A stretch of 64,000 nucleotides of DNA from a phage: the sequence record PV806337.1; one strand, 5' to 3'. This document shows, piece after piece, positions 7,944 to 25,030 of this stretch (positions are counted from its first letter, which is position 1; each line of letters begins with the position of its first letter). The notes under the pieces are model-generated. The model was not told where the DNA came from. It did not search any database and saw nothing but the letters and a program-made list of their open reading frames with translations. Both the position numbers and the translations under genes were made by a program.

Positions 7944-9350
7944 ATGTCTTTACAACTATTACGTAATACTCGAATCTTCGTGTCTACGGTTAAGACTGGT
8001 CACGATAAGACCAACACGCAAGAGATTCTAGTTCAGGATGATATTTCTTGGGGTCAGGACAGTAACTCAACAGATATTACTGTTAACGAAGCTGGTCCGC
8101 GTCCTACTCGTGGTTCTAAACGTTTTAACGATTCCTTGAATGCGGCTGAGTGGAGTTTTTCTACTTATATTCTGCCATACAAGGATAAAACCTCTAATAA
8201 ACAGATTGTTCCCGACTACATGTTATGGCATGCTCTTTCTAGTGGTAAAGCGTTAAACCTTGAGGGAGACACAGGTGCGCATAATAATGAAGCTAACTTC
8301 ATGGTTAACTTTAAAGATAACTCTTATCATGAGTTGGCTATGCTGCACATCTACATTCTTACTGACAAAGCATGGAGCTATATTGACTCTTGCCAGATCA
8401 ACCAGGCAGAAGTTAACGTTGATATTGAGGATATTGGTCGTGTAACTTGGTCTGGTAATGGTAATCAGCTCATCCCGTTAGATAGCCAACCATTTGATCC
8501 AGATGCACTAGGTATTGATGATGAAACCTATATGACTATTCAGAGTTCTTACATTAAGAACAAGTTAACTATCCTAAAAATTAAGGATATGGATTCTGAT
8601 AAGGCATATGATATTCCTATTACTGGTGGTACTTTTACCATTAATAACAACATCACGTACCTAACCCCGAATATTATGTCACGTGTAAATATTCCAATCG
8701 GCTCATTTACAGGTGCGTTTGAGTTAACGGGTTCTTTGACAGCATACCTTAATGATAAGTCTCTTGGTTCTATGGAACTGTACAAAGATCTTATCAAAAC
8801 CCTTAAGGTAGTTAACCGTTTTGAAATTGCACTTATTTTGGGTGGTGAATACGATGATGAGCGACCGGCAGCTGTGCTAGTTGCTAAACAGGCGCACGTT
8901 AATATCCCTACTATTGAGACTGATGATGTACTTGGTACTTCAGTAGAGTTTAAAGCTATTCCTACTGATTTGGATACTGGTGACGAAGGATACTTAGGCT
9001 TCTCTAACAAGTATACCAAAACTACAATAGCGAATCTAATTGCTACCGGAGATGGTGCTAAAACTCCTCCAGTTCCCGTTAAATCCATTACAGTTAAGTC
9101 GGCAGGTGAGGCTGTTTCTGTAACAAATAGTAATACTTTACAGATGTCTGTTGAGGTAACACCTCCAGAAGCTACTAATAAGGCTGTAACTTGGTCTATT
9201 TCTAGTGGTAACGCAGCTACGATTGATGCAGAATCTGGGTTATTAACAGCTGATGCCTCTAAAACTGGTGCAGTTACTGTGAAGGCTGTAGCTAAAGACG
9301 GTTCTGGTGTAGAAGGTACTAAAACTATCACAGTTAGTGCTGGTGGTTAA
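7944..9350 (+). CDS. tail tube protein with C-terminal Ig-like (Big_2-like) domain (pb6-like)
   Basis: 468 aa; AGGAGA RBS; C-terminal ~85 aa (SITVKSAGEAVSVTNSNTLQMSVEVTPPEATNKAVTWSISSG...) resembles bacterial Ig-like domain. Confidence 0.75.
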   Translation: MSLQLLRNTRIFVSTVKTGHDKTNTQEILVQDDISWGQDSNSTDITVNEAGPRPTRGSKRFNDSLNAAEWSFSTYILPYKDKTSNKQIVPDYMLWHALSSGKALNLEGDTGAHNNEANFMVNFKDNSYHELAMLHIYILTDKAWSYIDSCQINQAEVNVDIEDIGRVTWSGNGNQLIPLDSQPFDPDALGIDDETYMTIQSSYIKNKLTILKIKDMDSDKAYDIPITGGTFTINNNITYLTPNIMSRVNIPIGSFTGAFELTGSLTAYLNDKSLGSMELYKDLIKTLKVVNRFEIALILGGEYDDERPAAVLVAKQAHVNIPTIETDDVLGTSVEFKAIPTDLDTGDEGYLGFSNKYTKTTIANLIATGDGAKTPPVPVKSITVKSAGEAVSVTNSNTLQMSVEVTPPEATNKAVTWSISSGNAATIDAESGLLTADASKTGAVTVKAVAKDGSGVEGTKTITVSAGG

Positions 9351-9354
9351 ATAA

Positions 9355-10257
9355 ATGTACTACTCTCTAATGCGAGAGTCAAAAGTTATAGTTGAGTATG
9401 ATGGTAGGGCATTTCATTTTGATGCCCTATCAAACTATGATATACAGACTTCCTACGAGGAATTCAAGACTCTTCGTAGGACTGTTCATCATAGAACTAA
9501 CTATGCAGACTCTATTATAAATGCTCAAACCCCCTCTTCTATCTCTCTAGCAGTAAATTTCAGTAATACTCTTACAGAGGCTAACTTCTTTGAATGGTTA
9601 GGTTTTGATAGAAAAGGTAATACTTTCTTACTCCCACTATATAGTAGTAATATTGAACCTATTATGTTCAATATCTATATAGTAAATAAAGATAATAACT
9701 GTGTATATTTTGAAAACTGTTATGTATCTACGGTAGATTTTTCTTTAGATAAGAACATACCAATTCTTAATGTTGGTATTGAGTCTGGGAAATTCTCAGA
9801 AGTATCTACCTATAGAGAAGCAGCTTCTATTATACAGGGTGAAGTAATGTCTTACAGCCCAGTAATAGCTTCTACTAATGGCAGCATCTTACCCGGTCTT
9901 ATTTCTGCCTCTTTATCTTTCCAACAGCAGTGCTCCTGGAGAGAGGATAAGAGTGTTTTTGATATAAATAAAATTTATAATAATAAAAGAGCTTATGTAA
10001 ATGAAATGAATGCTTCGGCAACCATTTCTCTATATTACTTAAAACGTTTTGCAGGAGATATGGTTTACAATATCGAACCGGAGACAGATGTACCTTTAAA
10101 TATAAGAAATAATAATATTTCTATAGATTTTCCTTCAGCACGTATTACAAAACGCCTAGATTTCTCAGATGTGTATAGAGTTGAGTGGGATATTATACCT
10201 ACTGCTTCTTCAGACCCAGTGAGAATAGATTTCTTTGGAGAAATTAAAAATGATTAA
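9355..10257 (+). CDS. tail protein (p140-like)
   Basis: 300-aa Asn/Ser-rich ORF between tail tube and tape-measure genes. Confidence 0.5.
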   Translation: MYYSLMRESKVIVEYDGRAFHFDALSNYDIQTSYEEFKTLRRTVHHRTNYADSIINAQTPSSISLAVNFSNTLTEANFFEWLGFDRKGNTFLLPLYSSNIEPIMFNIYIVNKDNNCVYFENCYVSTVDFSLDKNIPILNVGIESGKFSEVSTYREAASIIQGEVMSYSPVIASTNGSILPGLISASLSFQQQCSWREDKSVFDINKIYNNKRAYVNEMNASATISLYYLKRFAGDMVYNIEPETDVPLNIRNNNISIDFPSARITKRLDFSDVYRVEWDIIPTASSDPVRIDFFGEIKND

Positions 10258-10654
10258 TTTAAAAGATATTACTCTTGATACTCGTACTATTACTCTTTCC
10301 TACCCAGGTATGCCGAACTTTAAATTAGAACTTAACTATATGTCTCGTGCTACCTCTAAACGTGTTATTTCTTCTGCTAAACGCGATGAATGGGTTAATG
10401 GTACTTTGATTCAGGTACAGGATGATGATAAGTTCATTGAAGCCTTCGTTGACGCAGCTATTAAAGGTTGGACCGGTTTGACTGTAGGTGACGTTGAAAA
10501 ACTGATGCTGATTGAAACAGATGCTGATCCTGCTACTGAAGTTCCTTTTAGCCGCGATAATGCTGTAATGCTCATGCAGAACTCTGCTGCGTTTGATTCT
10601 TGGATCAACCAGACAGTGTTCCACTTAGACACTTTTCGTAGCCCAAAAGCGTAA
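10250..10654 (+). CDS. putative tail assembly chaperone
   Basis: 134 aa from ATG 10250 with GGAG RBS; classical chaperone position upstream of tape measure; ORF-track start 10235 is a TTG. Confidence 0.45.
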   Translation: MINLKDITLDTRTITLSYPGMPNFKLELNYMSRATSKRVISSAKRDEWVNGTLIQVQDDDKFIEAFVDAAIKGWTGLTVGDVEKLMLIETDADPATEVPFSRDNAVMLMQNSAAFDSWINQTVFHLDTFRSPKA

Positions 10655-10715
10655 AGAACTCCTAGATGCTGTTGCTGATTTTGCAGATAAATGTATTAAA
10701 AGCTCAGCATCTAAA

Positions 10716-11084
10716 ATGACCAAACAACAATATTTAATACTTTGTGAGTCAATGGGTATAGAACCTGATCCTAAGGCTATGCCTGTTGAACTCGAAGATT
10801 TTCCACCTATTGTATCTATTAGTATGAATATCTATAACAGTCTGATTGACTGTTTCATACCGGGTGACTTTCCTATTTTTATAGGTAAGGATAAGGCTGC
10901 ATTAGGTGTTTTATTTGATATTTACGGGATTACTGATCCTATAGAAAAAGAATTTGTTCTACACATTATCAATATATTTGATGCTAAAGCTGTAGATGCT
11001 GCACGTAAACGTGCTGAGCAGCATAAACCGCAAAACGGAAGGATTCCTAACGTTAAGCCACATGCTAGATCTCGTGCACGGTAA
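10716..11084 (+). CDS. putative tail assembly chaperone, second ORF (possible frameshift extension)
   Basis: 122-aa ORF lacking Shine-Dalgarno; its frame is open from 10629 and overlaps the end of the upstream ORF. Confidence 0.4.
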   Translation: MTKQQYLILCESMGIEPDPKAMPVELEDFPPIVSISMNIYNSLIDCFIPGDFPIFIGKDKAALGVLFDIYGITDPIEKEFVLHIINIFDAKAVDAARKRAEQHKPQNGRIPNVKPHARSRAR

Positions 11085-11119
11085 AAGTTTCCTCCAATGG
11101 GCGTTCCACGATGAGGCTT

Positions 11120-11151
11120 GGCTCTGGGTGATTTGCCCAGAGCCTTTTTTA
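11120..11151 (+). terminator. rho-independent terminator
   Basis: GGCTCTGGG-tgatttg-CCCAGAGCC hairpin followed by TTTTTT. Confidence 0.75.
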
Positions 11152-11167
11152 TTGGGAAAAATAAAAC

Positions 11168-14100
11168 ATGACTGATAAGCTAATACGAGAATTACTAATA
11201 GACGTTAAACAGAAGGGGGCAACTCGTACTGCAAAGTCTATTGAAAACGTATCTGATGCGTTGGAAAATGCTGCTGCTGCTTCCGAACTGACAAATGAGC
11301 AGTTAGGTAAAATGCCCAGAACTCTTTATTCCATTGAGAGGGCAGCAGACAGAGCAGCGAAAAGTCTTACTAAAATGCAAGCTAGTAGGGGTATGGCTGG
11401 TATCACTAAATCCATTGACGGTATTGGTGATAAGCTAGACTACCTGGCTATCCAGCTTATTGAAGTAACAGATAAACTAGAAATTGGATTCGATGGAGTT
11501 TCTAGATCTGTTAAAACAATGGGTAATGATGTTGCAGCTGCAACAGAAAAAGTACAAGATAGATTATATGATACTAATAGAGCATTAGGTGGCACAGCTA
11601 GGGGTTTTAATGATACTGCTGGTGCCGCTGGTAGAGCTTCTAGAGCTATTGGTAATACTTCTGGTTCAGCACGTGGTGCAACTCGTGATTTTGCGGCAAT
11701 GGCTAAGATCGGTGGTAGTCTACCTATTATGTACGCAGCTCTTGCTTCCAACATCTTCGTTTTGCAATCAGCATTTGAACAACTTAAACTAGGTGATCAG
11801 CTAAATCGTCTAGAAAAATTTGGTGTTATAGTAGGTACTCAGACAGGTACTCCTGTTCAGACCCTAGCTAGATCACTACAAGAAGCTGCTGGATATGCTA
11901 TTTCTTTTGAGGAAGCAATGAGACAGGCATCTTCAGCATCTGCTTATGGATTTGATGCCGAACAACTTAATAAATTTGGTTTAGTAGCTCGTCGTGCTGC
12001 TGCTGTTCTTGGTGTTGATATGACTGATGCACTTAACCGTGTAATTAAGGGCGTATCTAAACAAGAAATCGAACTTCTGGATGAACTTGGTGTCACCATC
12101 CGTCTTAATGACGCATACGCTGATTATGTTAAACAGTTAAATGCTGCAAACACAGGTATAACATATAATGTTAATAGTCTTACCACTTTCCAGAAACAAC
12201 AAGCATACGCTAACGCGGTAATTGCTGAATCTACTAAGCGGTTTGGCTACCTAGATGAAGTACTACGTGCAACTCCATGGGAGCAATTTGCTGCTAATGC
12301 AGATGCTGCACTAAGAAAAATACAACAAGCTGCTGCTAAGTATTTAGGGCCAGTAATTGATGCTATCAACACAGTATTTTATACATCTCAGGCTTCTATA
12401 TCTGCTGAGGCAGCTAGAGCTCAAGAAAAAACTAATAGACAGATAGACCCTACCAACGTTGGTGCTGTTGCTTTAAGTTTAGCTGCTTCTGAAGAAGGCT
12501 ATAATAAAGCTCTAGATATGTATAAGGAATCTCTTGATAAGCGTAATAAGCTAAAATCTGAGTTCGATAAACGAATGGAACAAGCAGATTTCTATACAAA
12601 ACTAGCTATACGTCAAGTTGGTGAAGGTATTCCTGTTGGTCTTGCAGCAGCAGGTGCTTCGGAGGCCAATAAGCAATTTGTAGCAGAAACTGCAGCTATG
12701 GGTCTACAAGTAACTAGACTTGGTAAGGAAGTAGAGGATTCTACAGAGAATCTCAATGCTTGGAAATCAGCGTATCAAGCTGCTGGGGCCGCTGCTGCAA
12801 AGGCTAGTCCAGAGTTTCAGAAGCAAATTAATCTACAGAGAGATACTACTGACCCTGATGCTGTATACGATTTTAACTCTACTGTATTAAAAGGACTAAC
12901 TGAGCAGCAGAAAGCGTACAATCAGACTAAGAAAACGGCTAGTGACTTAGCTAATGACATACAGAACGTTGCTCAGAATACAGATACTGCTGCTAAAACT
13001 AGTGCTACTTTAGCAGATGCTATAAAAAATATAGAATCTCTATCTCTAGGTACTGGTAAAAGTGCAGATGAGTACGTTAAAAATCTTAACCTAGGCTATA
13101 ACACTCTGTCTGAAATGAAAACTGCGTCTCAGGCCTTATCTGAGTATGTTAAACTAACCGGTAATGAAACTAAAAATCAGTTAGCAGTTCAACAGAAGAT
13201 AGCTGATGTATATAACCAAACTAAGGATAAAGAAAAAGCACAGGAAGCCGGTAGGCGTTTAGAACTCCAACAGTTAGAAGAGCAAGAAGCTGCTTTACGC
13301 CGTGTTCTTCAAACAAACCAGGGAAATAAAGCTGTTGAGAAAGAAATTGAAAAAATTCAGCTGGAGAAACTTAAACTTACCAATCAGGGTATGGAAGCTC
13401 AGAAGAAGGTCAAGGATTACACAGATAAAATTCTTGGTGTAGATCGTGAGATAGCTCTCTTAAATAACCGTACTATGACAGATACTCAGTATCGTCTAGC
13501 ACAGTTAAATCTTGAATTGACCATTGAAAAAGAGAAGTACGAATGGTATACAAAACAAGCGGACAAACAGAAAGAGGCTGAACAGTCTAGACGTTCTCAA
13601 GCCCAAATTGAACGTGAAATATGGAAATTCCGTCAGGACCAGCAAGCTGAAATGACCAGTAAAAGGCAAGAAGCCTTTGAAAATACTCTAACTTCCATGT
13701 TCCCTCTGGCAGGGGAAATGCAAAAAATGGAAATGCAGTTAGATTTTTATACTCAGATGAAAGAACTTACCAAAGGTAATGCTAATGAGCAAATGCGCTG
13801 GAATGCTGAAATAGCTAAGACAAGGGCTCAGATGTCAGCTTTAACAGCACAACGTAATGCTCAGATGCAGCAACAGGTAGGTTCTTCTGTTGGAGCTACT
13901 TATACTCCTACAACTGGTCTATCTGGAGCAGATAAAGATTTTGCTGATATGCAGAATAGGATGTCTTCGTATGACCAAGCAATTTCTAAACTATCTGAGT
14001 TAAATTCCGAAGCAACTGCTGTAGCTCAAAGCATGGGTAATTTAACTAACTCTATGATTCAGTTCTCCCAGGGATCCCTAGATACTACGTCTATGATTGC

Positions 14101-14851
14101 TTCTGGTATGCAGACTGTAGCCTCGATGATTCAATATAGTACTAGCCAACAAGTTAGTGCAATTGATCAGGCTATTGCAGCAGAACAGAAACGTGATGGT
14201 AAATCTGAGGCATCTAAAGCTAAGCTGAAGAAACTAGAAGCTGAAAAGCTGAAGATTCAACAAGACGCAGCTAAGAAGCAGATCATCATCCAAACTGCAG
14301 TAGCAGTTATGCAGGCAGCAACAGCTGTACCATACCCGTTCTCTATCCCTCTGATGATAGCGGCAGGTTTAGCAGGTGCCTTAGCTCTTGCTCAAGCATC
14401 TTCTGCATCTGGCATGTCTAGTATAGGGGATTCTGGGGCTGATACCACTAGTTATTTAACCTTAGGAGAGCGTCAGAAGAATATAGATGTGTCCATGTCT
14501 GCTAATGCAGGTGAACTATCTTATATTCGTGGCGATCAAGGTATAGGGAGTGCCAACTCTTTCGTTCCTCGTGCTGAGGGTGGTAATATGTACCCTGGGG
14601 TTAGCTATCAAATGGGTGAGCATGGTACAGAAGTAGTTACCCCTATGGTTCCTATGAAAGCTACGCCTAATGATGAGCTAAAAACCTCATCTAACTCAAC
14701 TTCAGGAAGACCTATCATCTTGAATATTAGTGCTATGGATGCTGCAAGTTTTAGAGAGTTTGCTTCTAGTAATAGTGGTGCTCTAAGAGACGCAGTAGAA
14801 TTAGCTCTGAATGAGAACGGTGCTAGTCTGAAAACATTAGGAAATTCTTAA
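11168..14851 (+). CDS. tail tape measure protein (pb2-like)
   Basis: 1227 aa; long Ala/Gln-rich coiled coils, hydrophobic segment near C-terminus (PFSIPLMIAAGLAGALALA); position and size typical of TMP. Confidence 0.9.
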   Translation: MTDKLIRELLIDVKQKGATRTAKSIENVSDALENAAAASELTNEQLGKMPRTLYSIERAADRAAKSLTKMQASRGMAGITKSIDGIGDKLDYLAIQLIEVTDKLEIGFDGVSRSVKTMGNDVAAATEKVQDRLYDTNRALGGTARGFNDTAGAAGRASRAIGNTSGSARGATRDFAAMAKIGGSLPIMYAALASNIFVLQSAFEQLKLGDQLNRLEKFGVIVGTQTGTPVQTLARSLQEAAGYAISFEEAMRQASSASAYGFDAEQLNKFGLVARRAAAVLGVDMTDALNRVIKGVSKQEIELLDELGVTIRLNDAYADYVKQLNAANTGITYNVNSLTTFQKQQAYANAVIAESTKRFGYLDEVLRATPWEQFAANADAALRKIQQAAAKYLGPVIDAINTVFYTSQASISAEAARAQEKTNRQIDPTNVGAVALSLAASEEGYNKALDMYKESLDKRNKLKSEFDKRMEQADFYTKLAIRQVGEGIPVGLAAAGASEANKQFVAETAAMGLQVTRLGKEVEDSTENLNAWKSAYQAAGAAAAKASPEFQKQINLQRDTTDPDAVYDFNSTVLKGLTEQQKAYNQTKKTASDLANDIQNVAQNTDTAAKTSATLADAIKNIESLSLGTGKSADEYVKNLNLGYNTLSEMKTASQALSEYVKLTGNETKNQLAVQQKIADVYNQTKDKEKAQEAGRRLELQQLEEQEAALRRVLQTNQGNKAVEKEIEKIQLEKLKLTNQGMEAQKKVKDYTDKILGVDREIALLNNRTMTDTQYRLAQLNLELTIEKEKYEWYTKQADKQKEAEQSRRSQAQIEREIWKFRQDQQAEMTSKRQEAFENTLTSMFPLAGEMQKMEMQLDFYTQMKELTKGNANEQMRWNAEIAKTRAQMSALTAQRNAQMQQQVGSSVGATYTPTTGLSGADKDFADMQNRMSSYDQAISKLSELNSEATAVAQSMGNLTNSMIQFSQGSLDTTSMIASGMQTVASMIQYSTSQQVSAIDQAIAAEQKRDGKSEASKAKLKKLEAEKLKIQQDAAKKQIIIQTAVAVMQAATAVPYPFSIPLMIAAGLAGALALAQASSASGMSSIGDSGADTTSYLTLGERQKNIDVSMSANAGELSYIRGDQGIGSANSFVPRAEGGNMYPGVSYQMGEHGTEVVTPMVPMKATPNDELKTSSNSTSGRPIILNISAMDAASFREFASSNSGALRDAVELALNENGASLKTLGNS

Positions 14852-15575: not shown

Positions 15576-18421
15576 AAAAAATATTAGATAGTGCTAGAAA
15601 CTACTTAAAAAATAATAGCAGAATAAAAACTGCTAGTCTAATTTCTCTAGAGTTACCTGGCTCTACTGGTACTAGTACTGCTTTTATTTATTTAACTGAT
15701 TATTTTAGGGATGTACTATATAATGGCATCCTATACCAGGCAGGTAAAGTTAAGTCTATTAGCTCACACAAACAAAATAGAGATTTATCTATTGGTAGTC
15801 TATCTTTTACTATTACTGGTACAGCACAAGATGAAGTACTAAAACTAGTACAAAATGGTGTATCCTTCTTAGATAGAACAGTATCAATTCATCAAGCAAT
15901 TATTACTGAGGATGGTTCTATTCTACCAGTAGACCCAGATACAAATGGTCCTTTACTGTATTTTAGGGGGAGAATTACTGGAGGAGGTATTAAAGATAAC
16001 ATTAGTACCTCTGGAGTAGGAACCTCTACAATTACCTGGAATTGTTCTAACCAATTCTATGACTTTGATAGAGTTAATGGTAGATATACTGATGACGCTT
16101 CCCATAGGGGGCTTGAAGTTGTAGCAGGACAATTAGTTCCATCTAACGGAGCTAAAAGACCTGAGTACCAAGAAGACTATGGGTTCTTTCATGCTAATAA
16201 AAGTATATCTATACTAGCAAAGTACCAAGTACAGGAAGAAAGGTATAAGCTAAAATCAAAGAAAAAACTATTTGGCTTATCTAGAAGCTATAGCCTTAAA
16301 AAGTACTATGAAACTGTTACTAAGGAAGTAGATATAGATTTTAACCTTGCTGCTAAATATATACCAGTAGTTTATGGTGTGCAGAAAATACCGGGAATAC
16401 CTATTTTTGCGGATACAGAACTACACAATCCTAATATAGTTTATGTAGTATATGCCTTTGCTGAAGGGGAGATAGACGGTTTTCTTGATTTTTCCTTTGG
16501 CGATAACCCTATGATTTGTATGAATGATAATGATAGTTCTTCCAGAACCTGCTTTGGTGTTAAAAAAGTGGCTGGGGACACCATGCAAAGAATAGCGTCA
16601 GGAACACCTTCTAGTAGTCCTTCCGTGCATGGGCAGGAGTATAAGTATAATGATGGGAATGGTGACATAAGAATTTGGACGTATCATGGAAAACCTGACC
16701 AAACGGCTTCTGAAGTACTAGTAGATATAGCTAAAGAACGTGGGTTCTACCTTCAGAATATGAATGGCAATGGACCGGAGTACTGGGATGCTAGGTATAA
16801 ACTACTAGATACTGCATACGCAGTGGTGCGCTTCACTATTAATGAAAATAGAACTGAGATTCCTGAAGTTAGTGCTGAAATTCAAGGTAAAAAAGTAAAA
16901 GTCTATCATTCTGATGGTAGAGTAACTGCTAATAGTACTAGTTTAAATGGTATTTGGCAAACACTTGATTACTTAACCTCTGATAGATATGGCGCTAATA
17001 TTACCATTGATCAGTTCCCCCTTCAGCAATTAATACAGGAAGCAGCTATTTTAGATATTATAGATGAATCCTACCAAGTATCTTGGCAGCCATATTGGAG
17101 ATACGTTGGGTGGACTGATCCACTAGCAGAAAATAGACAAATAGTACAAATGAATACTATTCTGGATACATCTGAATCAGTATTTAAAAATGTGCAAGGT
17201 TTGTTAGAGTCCTATGGTGGGGCTATTAACAATTTATCTGGCCAGTATAGGGTTACTGTAGAAAAATACTCTAATACTCCATTAGAGATTAATTTTCTAG
17301 ATACTTACGGTGATTTGGAGCTATCTGATACTACTGGTAGAAATAAATTCAACTCAGTTCAAGCATCTATTGTGGATCCTGCCCTTAGTTGGAAAACTAA
17401 TGCCATTACATTCTATAACTCCAAGTATAAGGAACAGGACAAGAACCTAGATAAAAAACTACAACTATCTTTTGCTAATATTACTAATTATTATACTGCA
17501 AGAAGTTTTGCGGATAGGGAACTTAAGAAATCCAGATACTCAAGAACACTTTCTTTCTCATTGCCATATCAATTCATTGGTATTGAGCCTAATGATGCTA
17601 TTGCATTCACGTATGATCGTTATGGATGGAACAAAAAGTATTTCCTAGTTGATGAGGTTGAAAATTCTAGGGAAGGAAAGATAAATGTTACTCTACAGGA
17701 GTATGGAGAAGATGTATTCATCAACTCTGAGCAGGTTGATAATAGCGGTAATGATATTCCTGATATTAGTAATAATGTCCTTCCTCCTAGAGACTTTAAG
17801 TATACCCCTACTCCTGGCGGTTTAGTAGGCTCTATAGGTAAAAATGGTGAGTTATCCTGGCTTCCGAGTCTAACCAATAATGTAGTTTATTACTCTATTG
17901 TACATTCAGGCCATGCCGAACCTTACATAGTACAACAGTTAGAGACCAACCCTAACGAACGTATGATCCAAGAAATAATTGGAGAACCAGCAGGTCTGGC
18001 TATATTTGAGATAAGGGCAGTAGATATTAATGGTAGAAGAAGTTCCCCGGTGACTCTGTCTATAGAACTTAACTCTGCTAAAAACCTTAGTGTAGTATCC
18101 AATTTTAGGGTAATTAATACTGCTTCCGGAGATGTAACTGAGTTTGTTGGCCCAGATGTGAAACTAGCCTGGGATAGAATACCTGAAGAAGATATAATAG
18201 AGAGTATATTTTATACCCTTGAAATACACGATTCACAAAATAGGATGTTAAGAAGTGTACGTATTGAAAATCAGTACACTTATGACTATTTATTAACGTA
18301 TAATAAGGCAGACTTCGCTCTCCAGAACAGCGGTGCTCTAGGTATAAATAGAAAATTATATTTTCGTATTAGGGCTGAAGGGGATGATGGAGAACAGTCT
18401 GTGGAGTGGGCATCCATTTAA
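15572..18421 (+). CDS. baseplate hub / tail-associated protein (pb3-like)
   Basis: 949 aa following Dit; C-terminal fibronectin-III-like beta-rich repeats. Confidence 0.75.
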   Translation: MKKILDSARNYLKNNSRIKTASLISLELPGSTGTSTAFIYLTDYFRDVLYNGILYQAGKVKSISSHKQNRDLSIGSLSFTITGTAQDEVLKLVQNGVSFLDRTVSIHQAIITEDGSILPVDPDTNGPLLYFRGRITGGGIKDNISTSGVGTSTITWNCSNQFYDFDRVNGRYTDDASHRGLEVVAGQLVPSNGAKRPEYQEDYGFFHANKSISILAKYQVQEERYKLKSKKKLFGLSRSYSLKKYYETVTKEVDIDFNLAAKYIPVVYGVQKIPGIPIFADTELHNPNIVYVVYAFAEGEIDGFLDFSFGDNPMICMNDNDSSSRTCFGVKKVAGDTMQRIASGTPSSSPSVHGQEYKYNDGNGDIRIWTYHGKPDQTASEVLVDIAKERGFYLQNMNGNGPEYWDARYKLLDTAYAVVRFTINENRTEIPEVSAEIQGKKVKVYHSDGRVTANSTSLNGIWQTLDYLTSDRYGANITIDQFPLQQLIQEAAILDIIDESYQVSWQPYWRYVGWTDPLAENRQIVQMNTILDTSESVFKNVQGLLESYGGAINNLSGQYRVTVEKYSNTPLEINFLDTYGDLELSDTTGRNKFNSVQASIVDPALSWKTNAITFYNSKYKEQDKNLDKKLQLSFANITNYYTARSFADRELKKSRYSRTLSFSLPYQFIGIEPNDAIAFTYDRYGWNKKYFLVDEVENSREGKINVTLQEYGEDVFINSEQVDNSGNDIPDISNNVLPPRDFKYTPTPGGLVGSIGKNGELSWLPSLTNNVVYYSIVHSGHAEPYIVQQLETNPNERMIQEIIGEPAGLAIFEIRAVDINGRRSSPVTLSIELNSAKNLSVVSNFRVINTASGDVTEFVGPDVKLAWDRIPEEDIIESIFYTLEIHDSQNRMLRSVRIENQYTYDYLLTYNKADFALQNSGALGINRKLYFRIRAEGDDGEQSVEWASI

Positions 18422-23299: not shown

Positions 23300-25030
23300 A
23301 TGGTAACTAAAACAGTAATTCCTACGGATATTACAAAACTTAAAAATGAGTCACTTAACAAGAATAATAACTTAAGTGACTTAGCAGACCGTGCAGCAGC
23401 ATGGCTAAATGTGTGTCCTATTGGGTCCACCCCTCTTGCGGGGGACCCTGTTGGGGACTACGATGCTGCAACCAAACGTTGGGTAGAGAATAAGATTAAC
23501 ACTGGTACAGTCGGCCCCACTATGAATGGTGTTATGAACTACGGCGTTGGTGATTTCCACCTTCGAGATAGTCGTGCATATATTCAACCATACGAAGTCG
23601 TTTCTGACGGACAGCTTCTTAATAGGGCTGACTGGCCTGAACTTTGGGCGTATGCACAAATGGTTGGGGCTATAGATGATTCAGTTTGGTTAGGAGATAA
23701 ATTCCAGCGCGGTAAGTACTCATCAGGTAATGGAACAACAACCTTTCGTGTTCCAGATAAGAATGGGGTGCAGGAGGGATCAATACGCGCTCTTTATGGC
23801 CGTGGAGATGGTGGGAATAGTGGTGCAAATGGGCAACTGTTCGAATCCGCTGCGCCTAATATTACAGGTTTTTTCACCACATATGCCTCTCAAACCTATG
23901 CCCAGGCATTAGGACATACAGGTGGTTGCTTTAGTGCAAACAATAATGCGTTTCCTGACGGAAGAGGTGACGGAATCGCTCCAGGGTCTGCAGCTCTTGC
24001 TGGACGTTATAATACCTGCGACTTCAATGCCTCAATATCAAGTCCGATTTACGGGGCATCAACAGATGAGATTCTTACACGAAACTTTGTCGGCGTCTGG
24101 GTAATCCGTGCTTCTGGTGGGTTCGTGGCAGCAAATACATCATGGAGTGTTATTAACGCTGATAAAACAACCCCCGATTCAGGTGTTGTTGTTTCTGGTG
24201 GTAGTGTTAAATCTGAATATAAATCTCCCAGTGCAAGTGTAACAGCGGAACTAAAATCAAGTAAAGTAATTAATGGTGCATGGGGTGTTAGCTTAACTAT
24301 AACAGATGATAGAGGGATCCCTGTAAGCATTAAGTATGACAGTAATGGTCAGTTTTCAACATCTCATAGGCCATCTGGAGTCGGTACTGGGAGTTCCTAT
24401 ACTCATTGCGCTTATCGCGCGCCAGACTGGTGGAATAACACAGCATATAGTGCCTTCGTACCAATTCTTGGAGGTGGTAGCGGTAATTCACTAAAGAACT
24501 ATAGATCTTTTGCTTGTTTTGGACAAATATCTTATCCTGATTCTAGTAATAGTTATCCTAGAGCTGCAATTGCTCAAGTAAGGGATTGGGCACTACCAGA
24601 TGGTGAACAAGGTAACGGCAAGAGTATTACCGTGTTTACGTTTATTGATAATTCATTTGACCTTCAATATGGGTACAACGATGGTTCGCTAAACTATATT
24701 TTTTCAAAATCTCCAATTTGTGATGAAAGATTAAAGAAAAATATTGAATCCATTGATACTAATATTGCAATAAGTAATATTAAGCAGATGTCATATAAAT
24801 CATACATCTATAAAAATGACGAGAATGAACAGGTGCGCCGTGGTTTTATAGCTCAGGATTTACAGAAAATAGATCCCCAATATGTACGGGAATATGGAGA
24901 TCCTGGAAGAGAGAAAACGTTGGCCATTGATGAAAACGTTATGTTGCTTGATTCAGTTGCTGCGGTTAAGTGGCTTATTAATAAAGTTGAGGAGTTGCAA
25001 GAAGAAATAAATGTATTGAAAGCTAAGTAA
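23300..25030 (+). CDS. L-shaped tail fibre protein, distal receptor-binding part with C-terminal intramolecular chaperone domain (LtfB-like)
   Basis: 576 aa; N-terminal fibre motif (YDAATKRWVENKI); tail-collar-like segment (ADWPELWAYA...FRVPDKNG); C-terminal ~110 aa resemble S74-type auto-cleaving chaperone domain (…IAQDLQKIDPQYV…LLDSVAAVKWLINKVEELQEEINVLKAK). Confidence 0.8.
   Translation: MVTKTVIPTDITKLKNESLNKNNNLSDLADRAAAWLNVCPIGSTPLAGDPVGDYDAATKRWVENKINTGTVGPTMNGVMNYGVGDFHLRDSRAYIQPYEVVSDGQLLNRADWPELWAYAQMVGAIDDSVWLGDKFQRGKYSSGNGTTTFRVPDKNGVQEGSIRALYGRGDGGNSGANGQLFESAAPNITGFFTTYASQTYAQALGHTGGCFSANNNAFPDGRGDGIAPGSAALAGRYNTCDFNASISSPIYGASTDEILTRNFVGVWVIRASGGFVAANTSWSVINADKTTPDSGVVVSGGSVKSEYKSPSASVTAELKSSKVINGAWGVSLTITDDRGIPVSIKYDSNGQFSTSHRPSGVGTGSSYTHCAYRAPDWWNNTAYSAFVPILGGGSGNSLKNYRSFACFGQISYPDSSNSYPRAAIAQVRDWALPDGEQGNGKSITVFTFIDNSFDLQYGYNDGSLNYIFSKSPICDERLKKNIESIDTNIAISNIKQMSYKSYIYKNDENEQVRRGFIAQDLQKIDPQYVREYGDPGREKTLAIDENVMLLDSVAAVKWLINKVEELQEEINVLKAK

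What the first reader, a model, noticed from the sequence alone, without database searches (positions are those of the whole stretch)
10250..11084. Possible programmed frameshift joining the two tail-assembly-chaperone ORFs
The ORFs lie at the classical chaperone position before the tape measure. The downstream ORF has no Shine-Dalgarno, and its frame (coordinates divisible by 3) is open from 10629, overlapping the last 26 nt of the upstream ORF. Moving between them needs a +1 (or -2) shift, for example at ACU-UUU-CGU (10631-10639), where tRNA-Phe could re-pair from UUU to UUC. The more usual -1 frame closes after 7 codons.
Basis: inference. Interest (0 to 1): 0.5.

Follow-up and report, generated by a model that had tools for sequence, protein, structure and literature searches.

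The report
T5-type tail chaperone +1 frameshift
In this T5-like phage the two small "tail assembly chaperone" genes are almost certainly read as one fusion protein by a forward (+1) ribosomal slip at UUU_CGU; this is the usual phage tail-chaperone arrangement, reached through a slip site so far described for influenza virus and missed by nearly all genome annotations.

Summary
ORF1 (G, 10250-10654) and ORF2 (T, ATG 10716-11084) differ by +1. The T frame is open from 10629, and ATG 10716 has essentially no Shine-Dalgarno.

- In 30 unique close relatives, the 60-nt "intergenic gap" evolves as coding sequence in the T frame (18 synonymous against 4 non-synonymous variant codons) and has no start codon.
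- ATG 10716 is not conserved.
- Across 13 divergent +1 lineages, the only stretch shared by every G/T overlap is an in-frame UUU_CGN.
- Four more distant homologous lineages put T in the -1 frame, with canonical X_XXY_YYZ heptamers at or near the same codons.

Best reading: a low-level +1 slip of tRNA-Phe from UUU to UUC gives a 277-aa G-T fusion that acts like lambda gpGT.

The kind is known. One relative, Salmonella phage Shivani, already carries a joined CDS, but as a -2 join at an A-run that other lineages lack. The other records I inspected list two CDSs, and one paper says T5 has no frameshift signal. UUU_CGN matches the influenza PA-X motif.

Interest is moderate.

The parts
10250..10654 (+). 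G: tail assembly (tape measure) chaperone ORF, 134 aa, made by standard decoding. SD GGAG lies at 10237-10240.
10631..10639 (+). Proposed +1 shift site ACU_UUU_CGU. P-site tRNA-Phe moves from UUU (10634-10636) to UUC (10635-10637); the next codon read is GUA (10638-10640).
   Evidence: In-frame TTT_CGN is present in all +1-class loci (81 loci, 46 unique junctions, 13 lineages) and is the only stretch shared by every overlap.
10629..10654 (+). 26-nt overlap of the G frame with the open T frame. TAG 10626-10628 closes the T frame upstream.
   Evidence: The one polymorphic site here (10643, C/T) is synonymous in the T frame and non-synonymous in the G frame.
10638..10715 (+). 26 T-frame codons (VAQKRKELLDAVADFADKCIKSSASK) that lie upstream of the annotated ORF2 start and contain no start codon. 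They are translated only if ribosomes arrive from G.
   Evidence: For the 60 nt after the G stop, in 30 unique relatives: variable sites 5/1/14 by T-frame codon position (P=9e-4); 18 synonymous against 4 non-synonymous variant codons in the T frame, against 1 and 23 in the G frame; no T-frame stop in 30 of 30. The peptide is conserved in Erwinia, Klebsiella, Proteus and Vibrio phages.
10716..11084 (+). ORF2 as annotated in databases (122 aa); here it is read as the C-terminal part of the T domain.
   Evidence: phrog_3914 and phrog_313 positions 170-258. SD duplex -0.1 kcal/mol. The ATG is replaced by GTT in Erwinia phage KEY and by ATA in Klebsiella phage Roth39.
10250..11084 (+). Predicted G-T fusion, 277 aa: codons 10250-10636 joined to 10638-11081, junction ...HLDTF|VAQKRK...
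   Evidence: Inference. A 277-aa joined CDS exists in Salmonella phage Shivani, but with a different junction.
10663..10713 (+). Hairpin with a perfect 9-bp stem (10663-10671 / 10705-10713) that ends 2 nt before ATG 10716. It may occlude internal initiation. It is too far (29 nt) from the shift site to act on the slipping ribosome.
   Evidence: one compensatory U-A to C-G change and one U-A to U-G change among 20 unique relatives. Not conserved in distant lineages.
11120..11154 (+). Intrinsic terminator between the chaperone genes and the tape measure gene.
   Evidence: 11-bp stem with 7 GC pairs, followed by a T-run. Annotated as a terminator in T5 and KEY.

Best explanation
These are the gpG/gpGT-type tail assembly chaperone genes of a T5-like siphophage (Tequintavirus).

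Most ribosomes translate G (10250-10654) and stop, giving a 134-aa chaperone. A minority slip forward by one nucleotide when tRNA-Phe sits on UUU (10634-10636) in the P site. Its GAA anticodon re-pairs with UUC (10635-10637), a better match (G-C instead of G-U at the wobble position). Decoding then continues with GUA in the T frame through the start-less stretch 10638-10715 and the annotated ORF2, giving a 277-aa G-T fusion with junction ...DTF|VAQ...

By analogy with lambda, G and the G part of G-T coat the tape measure protein (pb2 homologue, 11168-14851). The T part recruits the tail tube protein (pb6 homologue, 7944-9350). Neither ends up in the virion.

Shown here: the geometry, the coding constraint on the 'gap', conservation of UUU_CGN, canonical -1 sites in homologues, and the chaperone fold of G.

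Inferred: that the shift happens, its direction and exact codon, its low efficiency (probably a few per cent, since no conserved stimulator was found), and the division of labour between G and T.
For: (1) Identity and synteny.
- 99% nucleotide identity to Tequintavirus genomes.
- G matches phrog_313 at positions 12-139 and T at positions 170-258 of the same 258-position 'tail assembly chaperone' profile.
- BFVD matches include frameshift-type chaperones of phages Loki, CcrColossus and Mu FS-gp41.

(2) The gap is coding in the T frame.
- In 30 unique relatives (85-100% identical), 14 of 20 variable sites fall on T-frame third positions (P=9e-4).
- Variant codons are 18 synonymous against 4 non-synonymous in the T frame, against 1 and 23 in the G frame and 1 and 21 in the -1 frame.
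- The T frame never has a stop. The other two frames have one in 30 of 30.

(3) There is no usable start.
- No ATG, GTG or TTG in the T frame from 10629 to 10715.
- ATG 10716 has an SD duplex of -0.1 kcal/mol, the weakest 5% of 62 ORFs.
- That ATG is GTT in Erwinia phage KEY and ATA in Klebsiella phage Roth39, while the upstream peptide is conserved.
- The first T-frame start codon lies anywhere from +4 to +145 nt across lineages.

(4) The frame relation is conserved despite indels.
- In the six divergent phages read by hand, the five distinct distances from the G stop to the annotated T start are 61, 73, 85, 70 and 64 nt, all = 1 mod 3.
- Of 17 lineages with G under 70% identical, 13 are +1, 4 are -1 and none is in frame.

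(5) The site.
- Every +1 locus has an in-frame TTT_CGN (CGT or CGA).
- The intersection of all overlaps is only -5 to +8 nt around it. In two lineages the overlap is just AC_AAC_UUU_CGU_UAA.
- Phe is always UUU in the +1 class, but UUC or UUU at the homologous codon in the -1 class.

(6) Homologous loci with T in the -1 frame, flanked by tube and tape-measure homologues, carry canonical heptamers G_GGA_AAC, A_AAU_UUU, A_AAU_UUC or A_AAA_AAC inside the overlap. All but A_AAA_AAC sit on or next to the homologous Asn-Phe codons; A_AAA_AAC lies a few codons further on.

(7) UCC_UUU_CGU is the experimentally established +1 site of influenza A PA-X (PMC3498833; review PMC5009743).

(8) Of the 10 in-frame TTT_CGN sites in the window's genes, only this one is followed by a long +1 ORF (149 codons, against 2-55 for the others).
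Against: - No protein, ribosome-profiling or reporter data exist. Everything is comparative.
- CGU is the commonest Arg codon of this phage (423 of 894) and of E. coli (20.2 per 1000; table 1 of PMC3498833). The 'slow A-site codon' that normally drives +1 slippage is therefore not evident.
- In-frame TTT_CGN is not clearly avoided elsewhere in the window (10 observed, 13.6 expected), so the motif alone cannot be very shifty.
- No conserved upstream SD-like element or downstream structure was found across lineages.
- The only database record that joins the two ORFs (Shivani) places the junction elsewhere, as a -2 join at UCA_AAA_G.
- A published genome note states that T5 has no predicted frameshift signal (PMC6256483).
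- Conservation of Phe-Arg could partly reflect constraints on the proteins.
Confidence: 0.8

Rival explanations
1. There are two independent proteins, as nearly all databases annotate. ORF2 is initiated at ATG 10716 (or by coupling after the G stop) and no fusion is made.
For: - RefSeq T5 (T5.143 and T5.142) and every other annotated record I inspected except Shivani list two separate CDSs.
- Gene callers in public assemblies always call a separate small T protein. No in-frame G-T fusion appears among 148 representative clusters.
- A genome note says T5 lacks a frameshift signal.
Against: - ATG 10716 has no SD and sits just after a conserved hairpin.
- The ATG is not conserved (GTT and ATA in relatives), and the first start codon wanders by more than 140 nt.
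- The 60 nt upstream with no start codon are under purifying selection in the T frame.
- The frame relation and the overlap are kept in 17 of 17 lineages.
- -1 homologues carry textbook slippery heptamers.
- Some independent initiation in addition to the fusion cannot be excluded.
Confidence: 0.07
2. A fusion is made, but by a different event inside the overlap. One option is a -2 slip at UCA/CCA_AAA_G (10643-10649), as annotated for Salmonella phage Shivani (junction ...FRSSK|KRKELL). Another is a +1 slip of tRNA-Lys from AAA to AAG (10646-10649).
For: - The Shivani joined CDS AJA73579.1 / YP_009194776.1 has exactly the -2 junction at the A-run.
- CAAAAG is conserved within Tequintavirus and Epseptimavirus.
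- tRNA-Lys re-pairs perfectly from AAA to AAG.
Against: - The A-run is absent in at least 6 lineages because G stops before it: KEY, Vibrio Achelous, SJ1 and 70E37-4, Proteus Stubb, and L065.
- It reads AAA_C or AAA_U in the Klebsiella lineage.
- -2 re-pairing on CAA is poor.
- The polymorphic site 10643, between UUU and the A-run, is synonymous in the T frame and non-synonymous in the G frame.
- A lineage-specific extra site cannot be excluded.
Confidence: 0.1
3. A -2 slip occurs at the same UUU codon (tRNA-Phe moves from UUU back to CUU), giving ...DTFFVAQ..., one residue longer than the +1 product.
For: - In the window and its close relatives the sequence is A_CUU_UUC, so CUU offers 2 of 3 pairs.
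- -2 is the mechanism reported for phage Mu gpGT (PMC3498833).
Against: In most lineages the preceding codon is AAC, ACC, UCC or AAU. A -2 move would land on ACU, CCU and the like, with no re-pairing, whereas UUU to UUC is available in all of them.
Confidence: 0.03

Closest known systems
Lambda gpG/gpGT and the conserved tail-assembly-chaperone frameshift of long-tailed phages (Levin 1993; Xu, Hendrix and Duda 2004, 2013, 2014, as summarised in PMC5009743)
   Same: - Two overlapping ORFs lie between the tail tube and tape measure genes.
- The second ORF has no start or SD of its own.
[quoted passage not shown]
   Different: - Lambda shifts -1 on G_GGA_AAG. Here the shift is +1 on UUU_CGU.
- A minor tail protein gene lies between the tube gene and G.
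- A terminator separates T from the tape measure gene.
- No Pfam family matched in the library at hand.
Influenza A virus PA-X +1 frameshift site UCC_UUU_CGU, and the UUU_CGN-type sites proposed for chronic bee paralysis virus, Lake Sinai virus and amalgaviruses (PMC3498833; PMC5009743)
   Same: - The same core, UUU_CGN, with P-site tRNA-Phe able to re-pair on UUC.
- No evident stimulatory structure.
- Two phage lineages (L061, L065) even have UCC_UUU_CGU_U.
   Different: - The host ribosome is bacterial.
- CGU is the most used Arg codon here and in E. coli, so codon rarity cannot explain the pause.
- The product is a morphogenetic chaperone, not a host-shutoff nuclease.
- No experimental proof exists here.
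Other non--1 tail chaperone shifts: phage Mu gpGT (-2) and haloarchaeal virus HSTV-2 (probably +1) (PMC5009743)
   Same: They show that the G-T fusion can be reached by -1, -2 or +1 in different phages. Here both -1 and +1 occur within one protein family.
   Different: The shift sequences differ. I did not examine the Mu and HSTV-2 sites.
Joined CDS 'tape measure chaperone' of Salmonella phage Shivani (AJA73579.1 / YP_009194776.1, 277 aa)
   Same: The same two genes (98% identical G) are annotated as one frameshift-joined product plus the short G.
   Different: The junction is set as a -2 join at UCA_AAA_G (...FRSSK|KRK...), a site absent from many related lineages. It is not discussed in the genome announcement.

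Membership tests
gpG/gpGT-type tail assembly chaperone pair with programmed frameshift | Located directly upstream of the tape measure gene and downstream of the tail tube gene | tested here: met
   Tube homologue 7944-9350, minor tail protein 9355-10257, G 10250-10654, T to 11084, tape measure 11168-14851. The same order is annotated in T5, Th1, KEY and Stubb.
gpG/gpGT-type tail assembly chaperone pair with programmed frameshift | The first ORF has the tail-assembly-chaperone fold or family | tested here: met
gpG/gpGT-type tail assembly chaperone pair with programmed frameshift | The second ORF overlaps the 3' end of the first in another frame and lacks its own initiation signals | tested here: met
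   26-nt overlap, +1 frame. SD duplex -0.1 kcal/mol. The ATG is not conserved and no start codon lies in 10629-10715.
gpG/gpGT-type tail assembly chaperone pair with programmed frameshift | A conserved slippery sequence lies inside the overlap | tested here: met
   UUU_CGN in 13 of 13 +1 lineages. X_XXY_YYZ in 4 of 4 -1 lineages.
gpG/gpGT-type tail assembly chaperone pair with programmed frameshift | A fusion protein is actually produced at a low ratio to G and is required for tail assembly | not testable with these tools
   Needs a western blot or mass spectrometry, plus genetics. The only indirect support is purifying selection on the start-less T-frame stretch.
gpG/gpGT-type tail assembly chaperone pair with programmed frameshift | G binds the tape measure protein and T binds the tail tube protein | not testable with these tools
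   Inferred from lambda (PMC5009743).
UUU_CGN +1 frameshift sites (influenza PA-X type) | An in-frame UUU followed by CGN at the start of a conserved +1 ORF | tested here: met
   10634-10639. All 46 unique +1 junctions have CGT or CGA.
UUU_CGN +1 frameshift sites (influenza PA-X type) | The A-site CGN codon is rare or slowly decoded in the host | tested here: not met
   CGT accounts for 423 of 894 Arg codons in the window's ORFs. E. coli CGU is 20.2 per 1000 (PMC3498833 table 1). CGA, used by the Vibrio and Aeromonas lineages, is rarer.
UUU_CGN +1 frameshift sites (influenza PA-X type) | Junction peptide shown by protein sequencing | not testable with these tools
   No proteomic data are available.

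The most novel reading that the evidence does not exclude
UUU_CGN is a +1 frameshift signal that works on bacterial as well as eukaryotic ribosomes. The whole T5 family (Demerecviridae, over 900 sequenced genomes) uses it to make its G-T tail chaperone. It evolved by switching between -1 (A_AAU_UUU, G_GGA_AAC) and +1 at or next to the same Asn-Phe codons. Because CGU is the commonest Arg codon in these phages and hosts, this would show that the shiftiness of UUU_CGN does not depend on a rare A-site codon, a point left open for influenza PA-X.
Probability: 0.45. Interest if true: 0.7.

Novelty: new member of a known kind. Interest (0 to 1): 0.55.

Why it matters
T5 is a classical model phage, and its relatives are widely sequenced for therapy and biocontrol. 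If the fusion is real, about 900 genome records mis-describe an essential morphogenesis gene: two CDSs, one of them starting at an arbitrary Met. The published remark that T5 lacks a chaperone frameshift signal would also be wrong.

For recoding biology, it would add a prokaryotic family-wide example of +1 slippage at UUU_CGN. It would come with a natural within-family comparison of -1 and +1 solutions, and a system (E. coli plus T5) in which the unexplained role of the CGN codon could be dissected easily.

For annotation pipelines, it gives a concrete motif to add. Current tools look for rare A-site codons or stops when predicting +1 events.

Tried and rejected
- **-1 shift at C_CCA_AAA (10642-10648).** This is a perfect heptamer in the window, but the -1 frame stops after 7 codons, and the heptamer is polymorphic (CTCAAAA in T5 and many relatives). 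Rejected.
- **Transcriptional slippage.** The T-run is only 3-4 nt. Rejected.
- **Sequencing error or pseudogene.** The same geometry appears in hundreds of independent genomes. Rejected.
- **Downstream stimulatory RNA structure.** The hairpin at 10663-10713 is conserved only among close relatives, starts 29 nt from the P-site codon, and no common structure exists in distant lineages. Rfam found nothing.
- **Upstream SD-like stimulator.** Not conserved; GGAG sits 3 nt upstream in only one lineage.
- **Phage tRNAs as a cause of codon 'hunger'.** There are no tRNA genes in the window. Not pursued in whole genomes.
- **Natural in-frame G-T fusions.** None among 148 representative clusters, and none in the tblastn rows listed, where every near-full-length match came in two pieces.
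- **The search for homologous proteins with the artificial fusion.** Returned nothing.
- **Single-sequence AF2 of G.** Useless, pLDDT 39. Redone with an alignment.
- **Papers not held.** Zivanovic et al. 2014 (T5 morphogenesis genes) and Schwartz and Curran 1997 (UUU-pyrimidine frameshifting) could not be read. What they say about T5 or about UUU-Y shiftiness is therefore not verified here. My recollection that UUU-Y is +1 shift-prone in E. coli is from memory only.
Full report
**What the window is.** The region 10200-11200 is 99% identical to Salmonella phage oldekolle and 85% or more identical to 446 T5-like phage records. The surrounding ORFs are the T5 tail module: tail tube (pb6 homologue, 7944-9350), a 300-aa minor tail protein (9355-10257), two small ORFs, the 1227-aa tape measure (pb2 homologue, 11168-14851), then the pb9 and pb3 homologues (annotations of T5, Th1 and MM-2).

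**Checking the observation.**
- ORF1 ("G") runs from ATG 10250 to TAA 10652-10654, with GGAG 9 nt upstream of the ATG.
- ORF2 ("T") has its first ATG at 10716 and ends at 11084.
- The T frame is +1 relative to G. It is closed by TAG 10626-10628 and open from 10629, which gives a 26-nt overlap.
- ACU_UUU_CGU lies at 10631-10639 in the G frame.
- The -1 frame closes after 7 codons from the C_CCA_AAA heptamer.
- ATG 10716 has practically no Shine-Dalgarno. The anti-SD duplex is -0.1 kcal/mol, against a median of -5.75 for 62 ORFs of the window.
- The T frame has no ATG, GTG or TTG between 10629 and 10716.

**Is the 'intergenic gap' translated?** I collected the homologous segment from 55 loci (30 unique sequences, 85-100% identical) and counted substitutions in the 60 nt between the G stop and ATG 10716.
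- Of 20 variable sites, 5, 1 and 14 fall on T-frame codon positions 1, 2 and 3 (binomial P=9e-4). The pattern matches that of G proper (26/4/88) and of T after the ATG (19/12/74).
- Variant codons are 18 synonymous against 4 non-synonymous in the T frame, but 1 against 23 in the G frame and 1 against 21 in the -1 frame.
- The T frame has no stop in any sequence. The other two frames have stops in all 30.
- The single polymorphic site inside the overlap (10643) is synonymous in T and non-synonymous in G.

The stretch is therefore under selection as protein in the T frame, although no start codon gives access to it.

**Distant relatives.** tblastn found homologues of T in 909 phage records: Escherichia, Salmonella, Klebsiella, Erwinia, Proteus, Aeromonas and several Vibrio groups. 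I read six divergent ones.
- T is +1 of G in all of them, and the T frame is always open back into G.
- The five distinct distances from the G stop to the annotated T start are 61, 73, 85, 70 and 64 nt, all equal to 1 mod 3.
- The peptide encoded upstream of the window's ATG is conserved: ELLDAVADFADKCIKSSASK, ELETALQRFAKQINSPAASK, RLLKEIDAFAERCVKGGDSK.
- The ATG itself is GTT in Erwinia phage KEY and ATA in Klebsiella phage Roth39.
- Annotators consequently chose different starts: a TTG inside the overlap in KEY, and a downstream Met in Roth39.

With 66 more loci from IMG/VR, 101 loci in total were analysed by script.

**The shift site.**
- All 82 loci with T in the +1 frame carry an in-frame TTT_CGN (CGT, or CGA in the Vibrio and Aeromonas lineages) inside the overlap, 6-60 nt before the G stop. 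In Aeromonas phage AhSzw-1 (L007) the site was read by hand, because in-frame TAG codons defeated the script.
- Taking the overlaps of all 81 script-analysed loci together, the only part common to every one runs from -5 to +8 relative to the first U of UUU. In Vibrio phage 70E37-4 and in L065 the whole overlap is AC_AAC_UUU_CGU_UAA or its equivalent.
- The G-frame residues after Phe-Arg vary freely in length and sequence (RSPKA, RS, RDSKQEPTA, RN, RTI, R, RG). The T-frame residues after Phe are alignable.
- After clustering G at 70% identity there are 17 lineages: 13 are +1 and all have UUU_CGN, and none has G and T in the same frame.
- The Phe codon is UUU in every +1 lineage, although UUC makes up 43% of Phe codons in the window.
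- UUU to UUC is the only re-pairing available in all lineages, and it improves the wobble pair for the GAA anticodon.
- A -2 move would land on ACU or CCU in most lineages.

**Homologues that use -1.** The other four lineages are metagenomic, 28-40% identical, and flanked by homologues of the same tube and tape measure proteins. They have T in the -1 frame. Each has a textbook X_XXY_YYZ heptamer inside the overlap: G_GGA_AAC (...CUG_GGA_AAC_UUC/U_UAA), A_AAU_UUU (followed by CGG), A_AAU_UUC and A_AAA_AAC. The first three sit on or next to the Asn-Phe codons that are homologous to the N/T-F of the +1 class; A_AAA_AAC lies a few codons further downstream. This is strong independent evidence that the family makes a G-T fusion by recoding, and that the direction of the shift changed during its evolution while the place changed little or not at all. 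In these -1 loci the homologous Phe codon is UUC or UUU, so it is free to vary.

**What the proteins are.**
- G matches phrog_313 ("tail assembly chaperone") at profile positions 12-139, and the T part matches positions 170-258 of the same profile, so that family contains joined G-T sequences. Pfam-A in the local copy gave nothing.
- A single-sequence AlphaFold model was useless.
- With ten homologues the model of G reached pLDDT 83, with residues 130-134, those after the shift codon, disordered.
- Foldseek against viral models finds tail assembly chaperones of many phages, including frameshift-type ones: Loki, CcrColossus and Mu FS-gp41.

**Prior knowledge.**
- The G/GT frameshift is a well-known, widely conserved feature of long-tailed phages. 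The Atkins et al. review states that -1, -2 or +1 is used in different phages (PMC5009743).
- For the T5 group, RefSeq T5 and every other annotated record I inspected except Shivani list two separate CDSs.
- One exception surfaced through the fold search: Salmonella phage Shivani has a 277-aa 'tape measure chaperone', annotated as a two-piece join. By exact-sequence look-up of all possible junctions, its junction is ...DTFRSSK|KRKELL. That is a -2 join at UCA_AAA_G, not at UUU_CGU. The genome note does not mention it.
- That A-run cannot be the general site. In at least six lineages G terminates before it, and in the Klebsiella lineage it reads AAA_C or AAA_U.
- I could not read Zivanovic et al. 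2014 on T5 morphogenesis genes, so an earlier statement there cannot be excluded.

**Relation to known +1 sites.** UCC_UUU_CGU is the experimentally mapped +1 site of influenza A PA-X, and the review says that site guided the spotting of +1 sites in chronic bee paralysis virus, Lake Sinai virus and Amalgaviridae. Two phage lineages even have UCC_UUU_CGU_U. For influenza, Firth et al. suggested that the rarity of CGU in birds and mammals favours slippage, but called the role of the A-site codon uncertain. Here CGU is the commonest Arg codon (423 of 894 in the window; 20.2 per 1000 in E. coli), so rarity does not apply. In-frame TTT_CGN occurs 10 times in the window's genes (13.6 expected), and only the G site is followed by a long +1 ORF. 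The motif is thus tolerated elsewhere, which suggests low intrinsic efficiency. That fits a G:GT ratio like lambda's 30:1.

**Search for stimulators.** I found no conserved SD-like element upstream. A perfect 9-bp hairpin (10663-10671 / 10705-10713; z-score -2.55 for 10637-10760) is kept among close relatives, with one compensatory and one wobble change. It is absent in distant lineages and lies too far downstream to touch a ribosome with UUU in its P site. Because it ends 2 nt before ATG 10716, it may instead suppress internal initiation. Rfam has no match.

**Conclusion.** I put about 0.8 on a programmed fusion with the shift at UUU_CGU in the +1 direction, and most of the remainder on a fusion made at another site in the overlap.

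It is a member of the known gpG/gpGT class rather than a new kind of system. Four things are new relative to what I could find:
- the site and direction of the shift;
- its conservation across the whole T5 family;
- the -1/+1 switch within one protein family;
- the match to the influenza-type UUU_CGN motif in a bacterial setting.

All mechanistic steps beyond the sequence comparison remain inferred.

Noticed in passing
L007 (Aeromonas phage AhSzw-1, NC_047950) 1040-1830: The G and T homologues contain many in-frame TAG codons: 1146, 1218, 1290, 1317 and 1404 in G, and 1453, 1483, 1606 and 1741 in T. G ends at a TGA, and the region is unannotated in RefSeq. This looks like TAG recoding or a suppressor-dependent phage, or else a systematic sequence problem. 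The UUU_CGA +1 geometry is still present.
   Followed up: partly
window 11120-11154: A strong intrinsic terminator (11-bp stem, 7 GC pairs, T-run) lies between the chaperone genes and the tape measure gene. It is annotated as a terminator in T5 and in Erwinia phage KEY. It implies that tape-measure transcription depends on read-through or on a separate promoter.
   Followed up: partly
window 10663-10713: A perfect 9-bp hairpin ends 2 nt before ATG 10716. It is conserved in 20 unique close relatives, with one compensatory U-A to C-G change, and is absent in distant lineages. It may occlude internal initiation.
   Followed up: partly
L104 (T5 NC_005859) 778-1530; one search hit H15 (phage IrisVonRoten): T5 itself carries an endonuclease gene (T5.141) between the chaperone genes and the tape measure gene, which the window lacks. 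IrisVonRoten has a homing endonuclease that splits the match to this region. The locus appears to be a hotspot for homing-endonuclease insertion.
   Followed up: no
L073 1887-1896; L075 1881-1887: The metagenomic homologue L073 reads A_AAU_UUU_CGG. It therefore holds both a canonical -1 heptamer and a UUU_CGN, and its T frame is -1. It could be an evolutionary intermediate between the two solutions.
   Followed up: partly
proteins P0006 (1455 aa) and P0148 (554 aa): Two long proteins in the representative library match the T domain in 8 and 4 separate stretches, so they carry repeated T-like segments. Their origin is unknown.
   Followed up: no
window 18362 and 23744: Other in-frame TTT_CGT sites. 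The one at 18362, 19 codons before the end of the pb3 homologue, is followed by a 23-codon +1 ORF. The one at 23744 is followed by a 55-codon +1 ORF. There is no sign that either is used.
   Followed up: partly
proteins P0149-P0159: Precomputed Pfam tags give PF27119 for most G homologues, but the local Pfam-A copy has no model that matches G. A recent Pfam family for this chaperone probably exists and could not be inspected.
   Followed up: no
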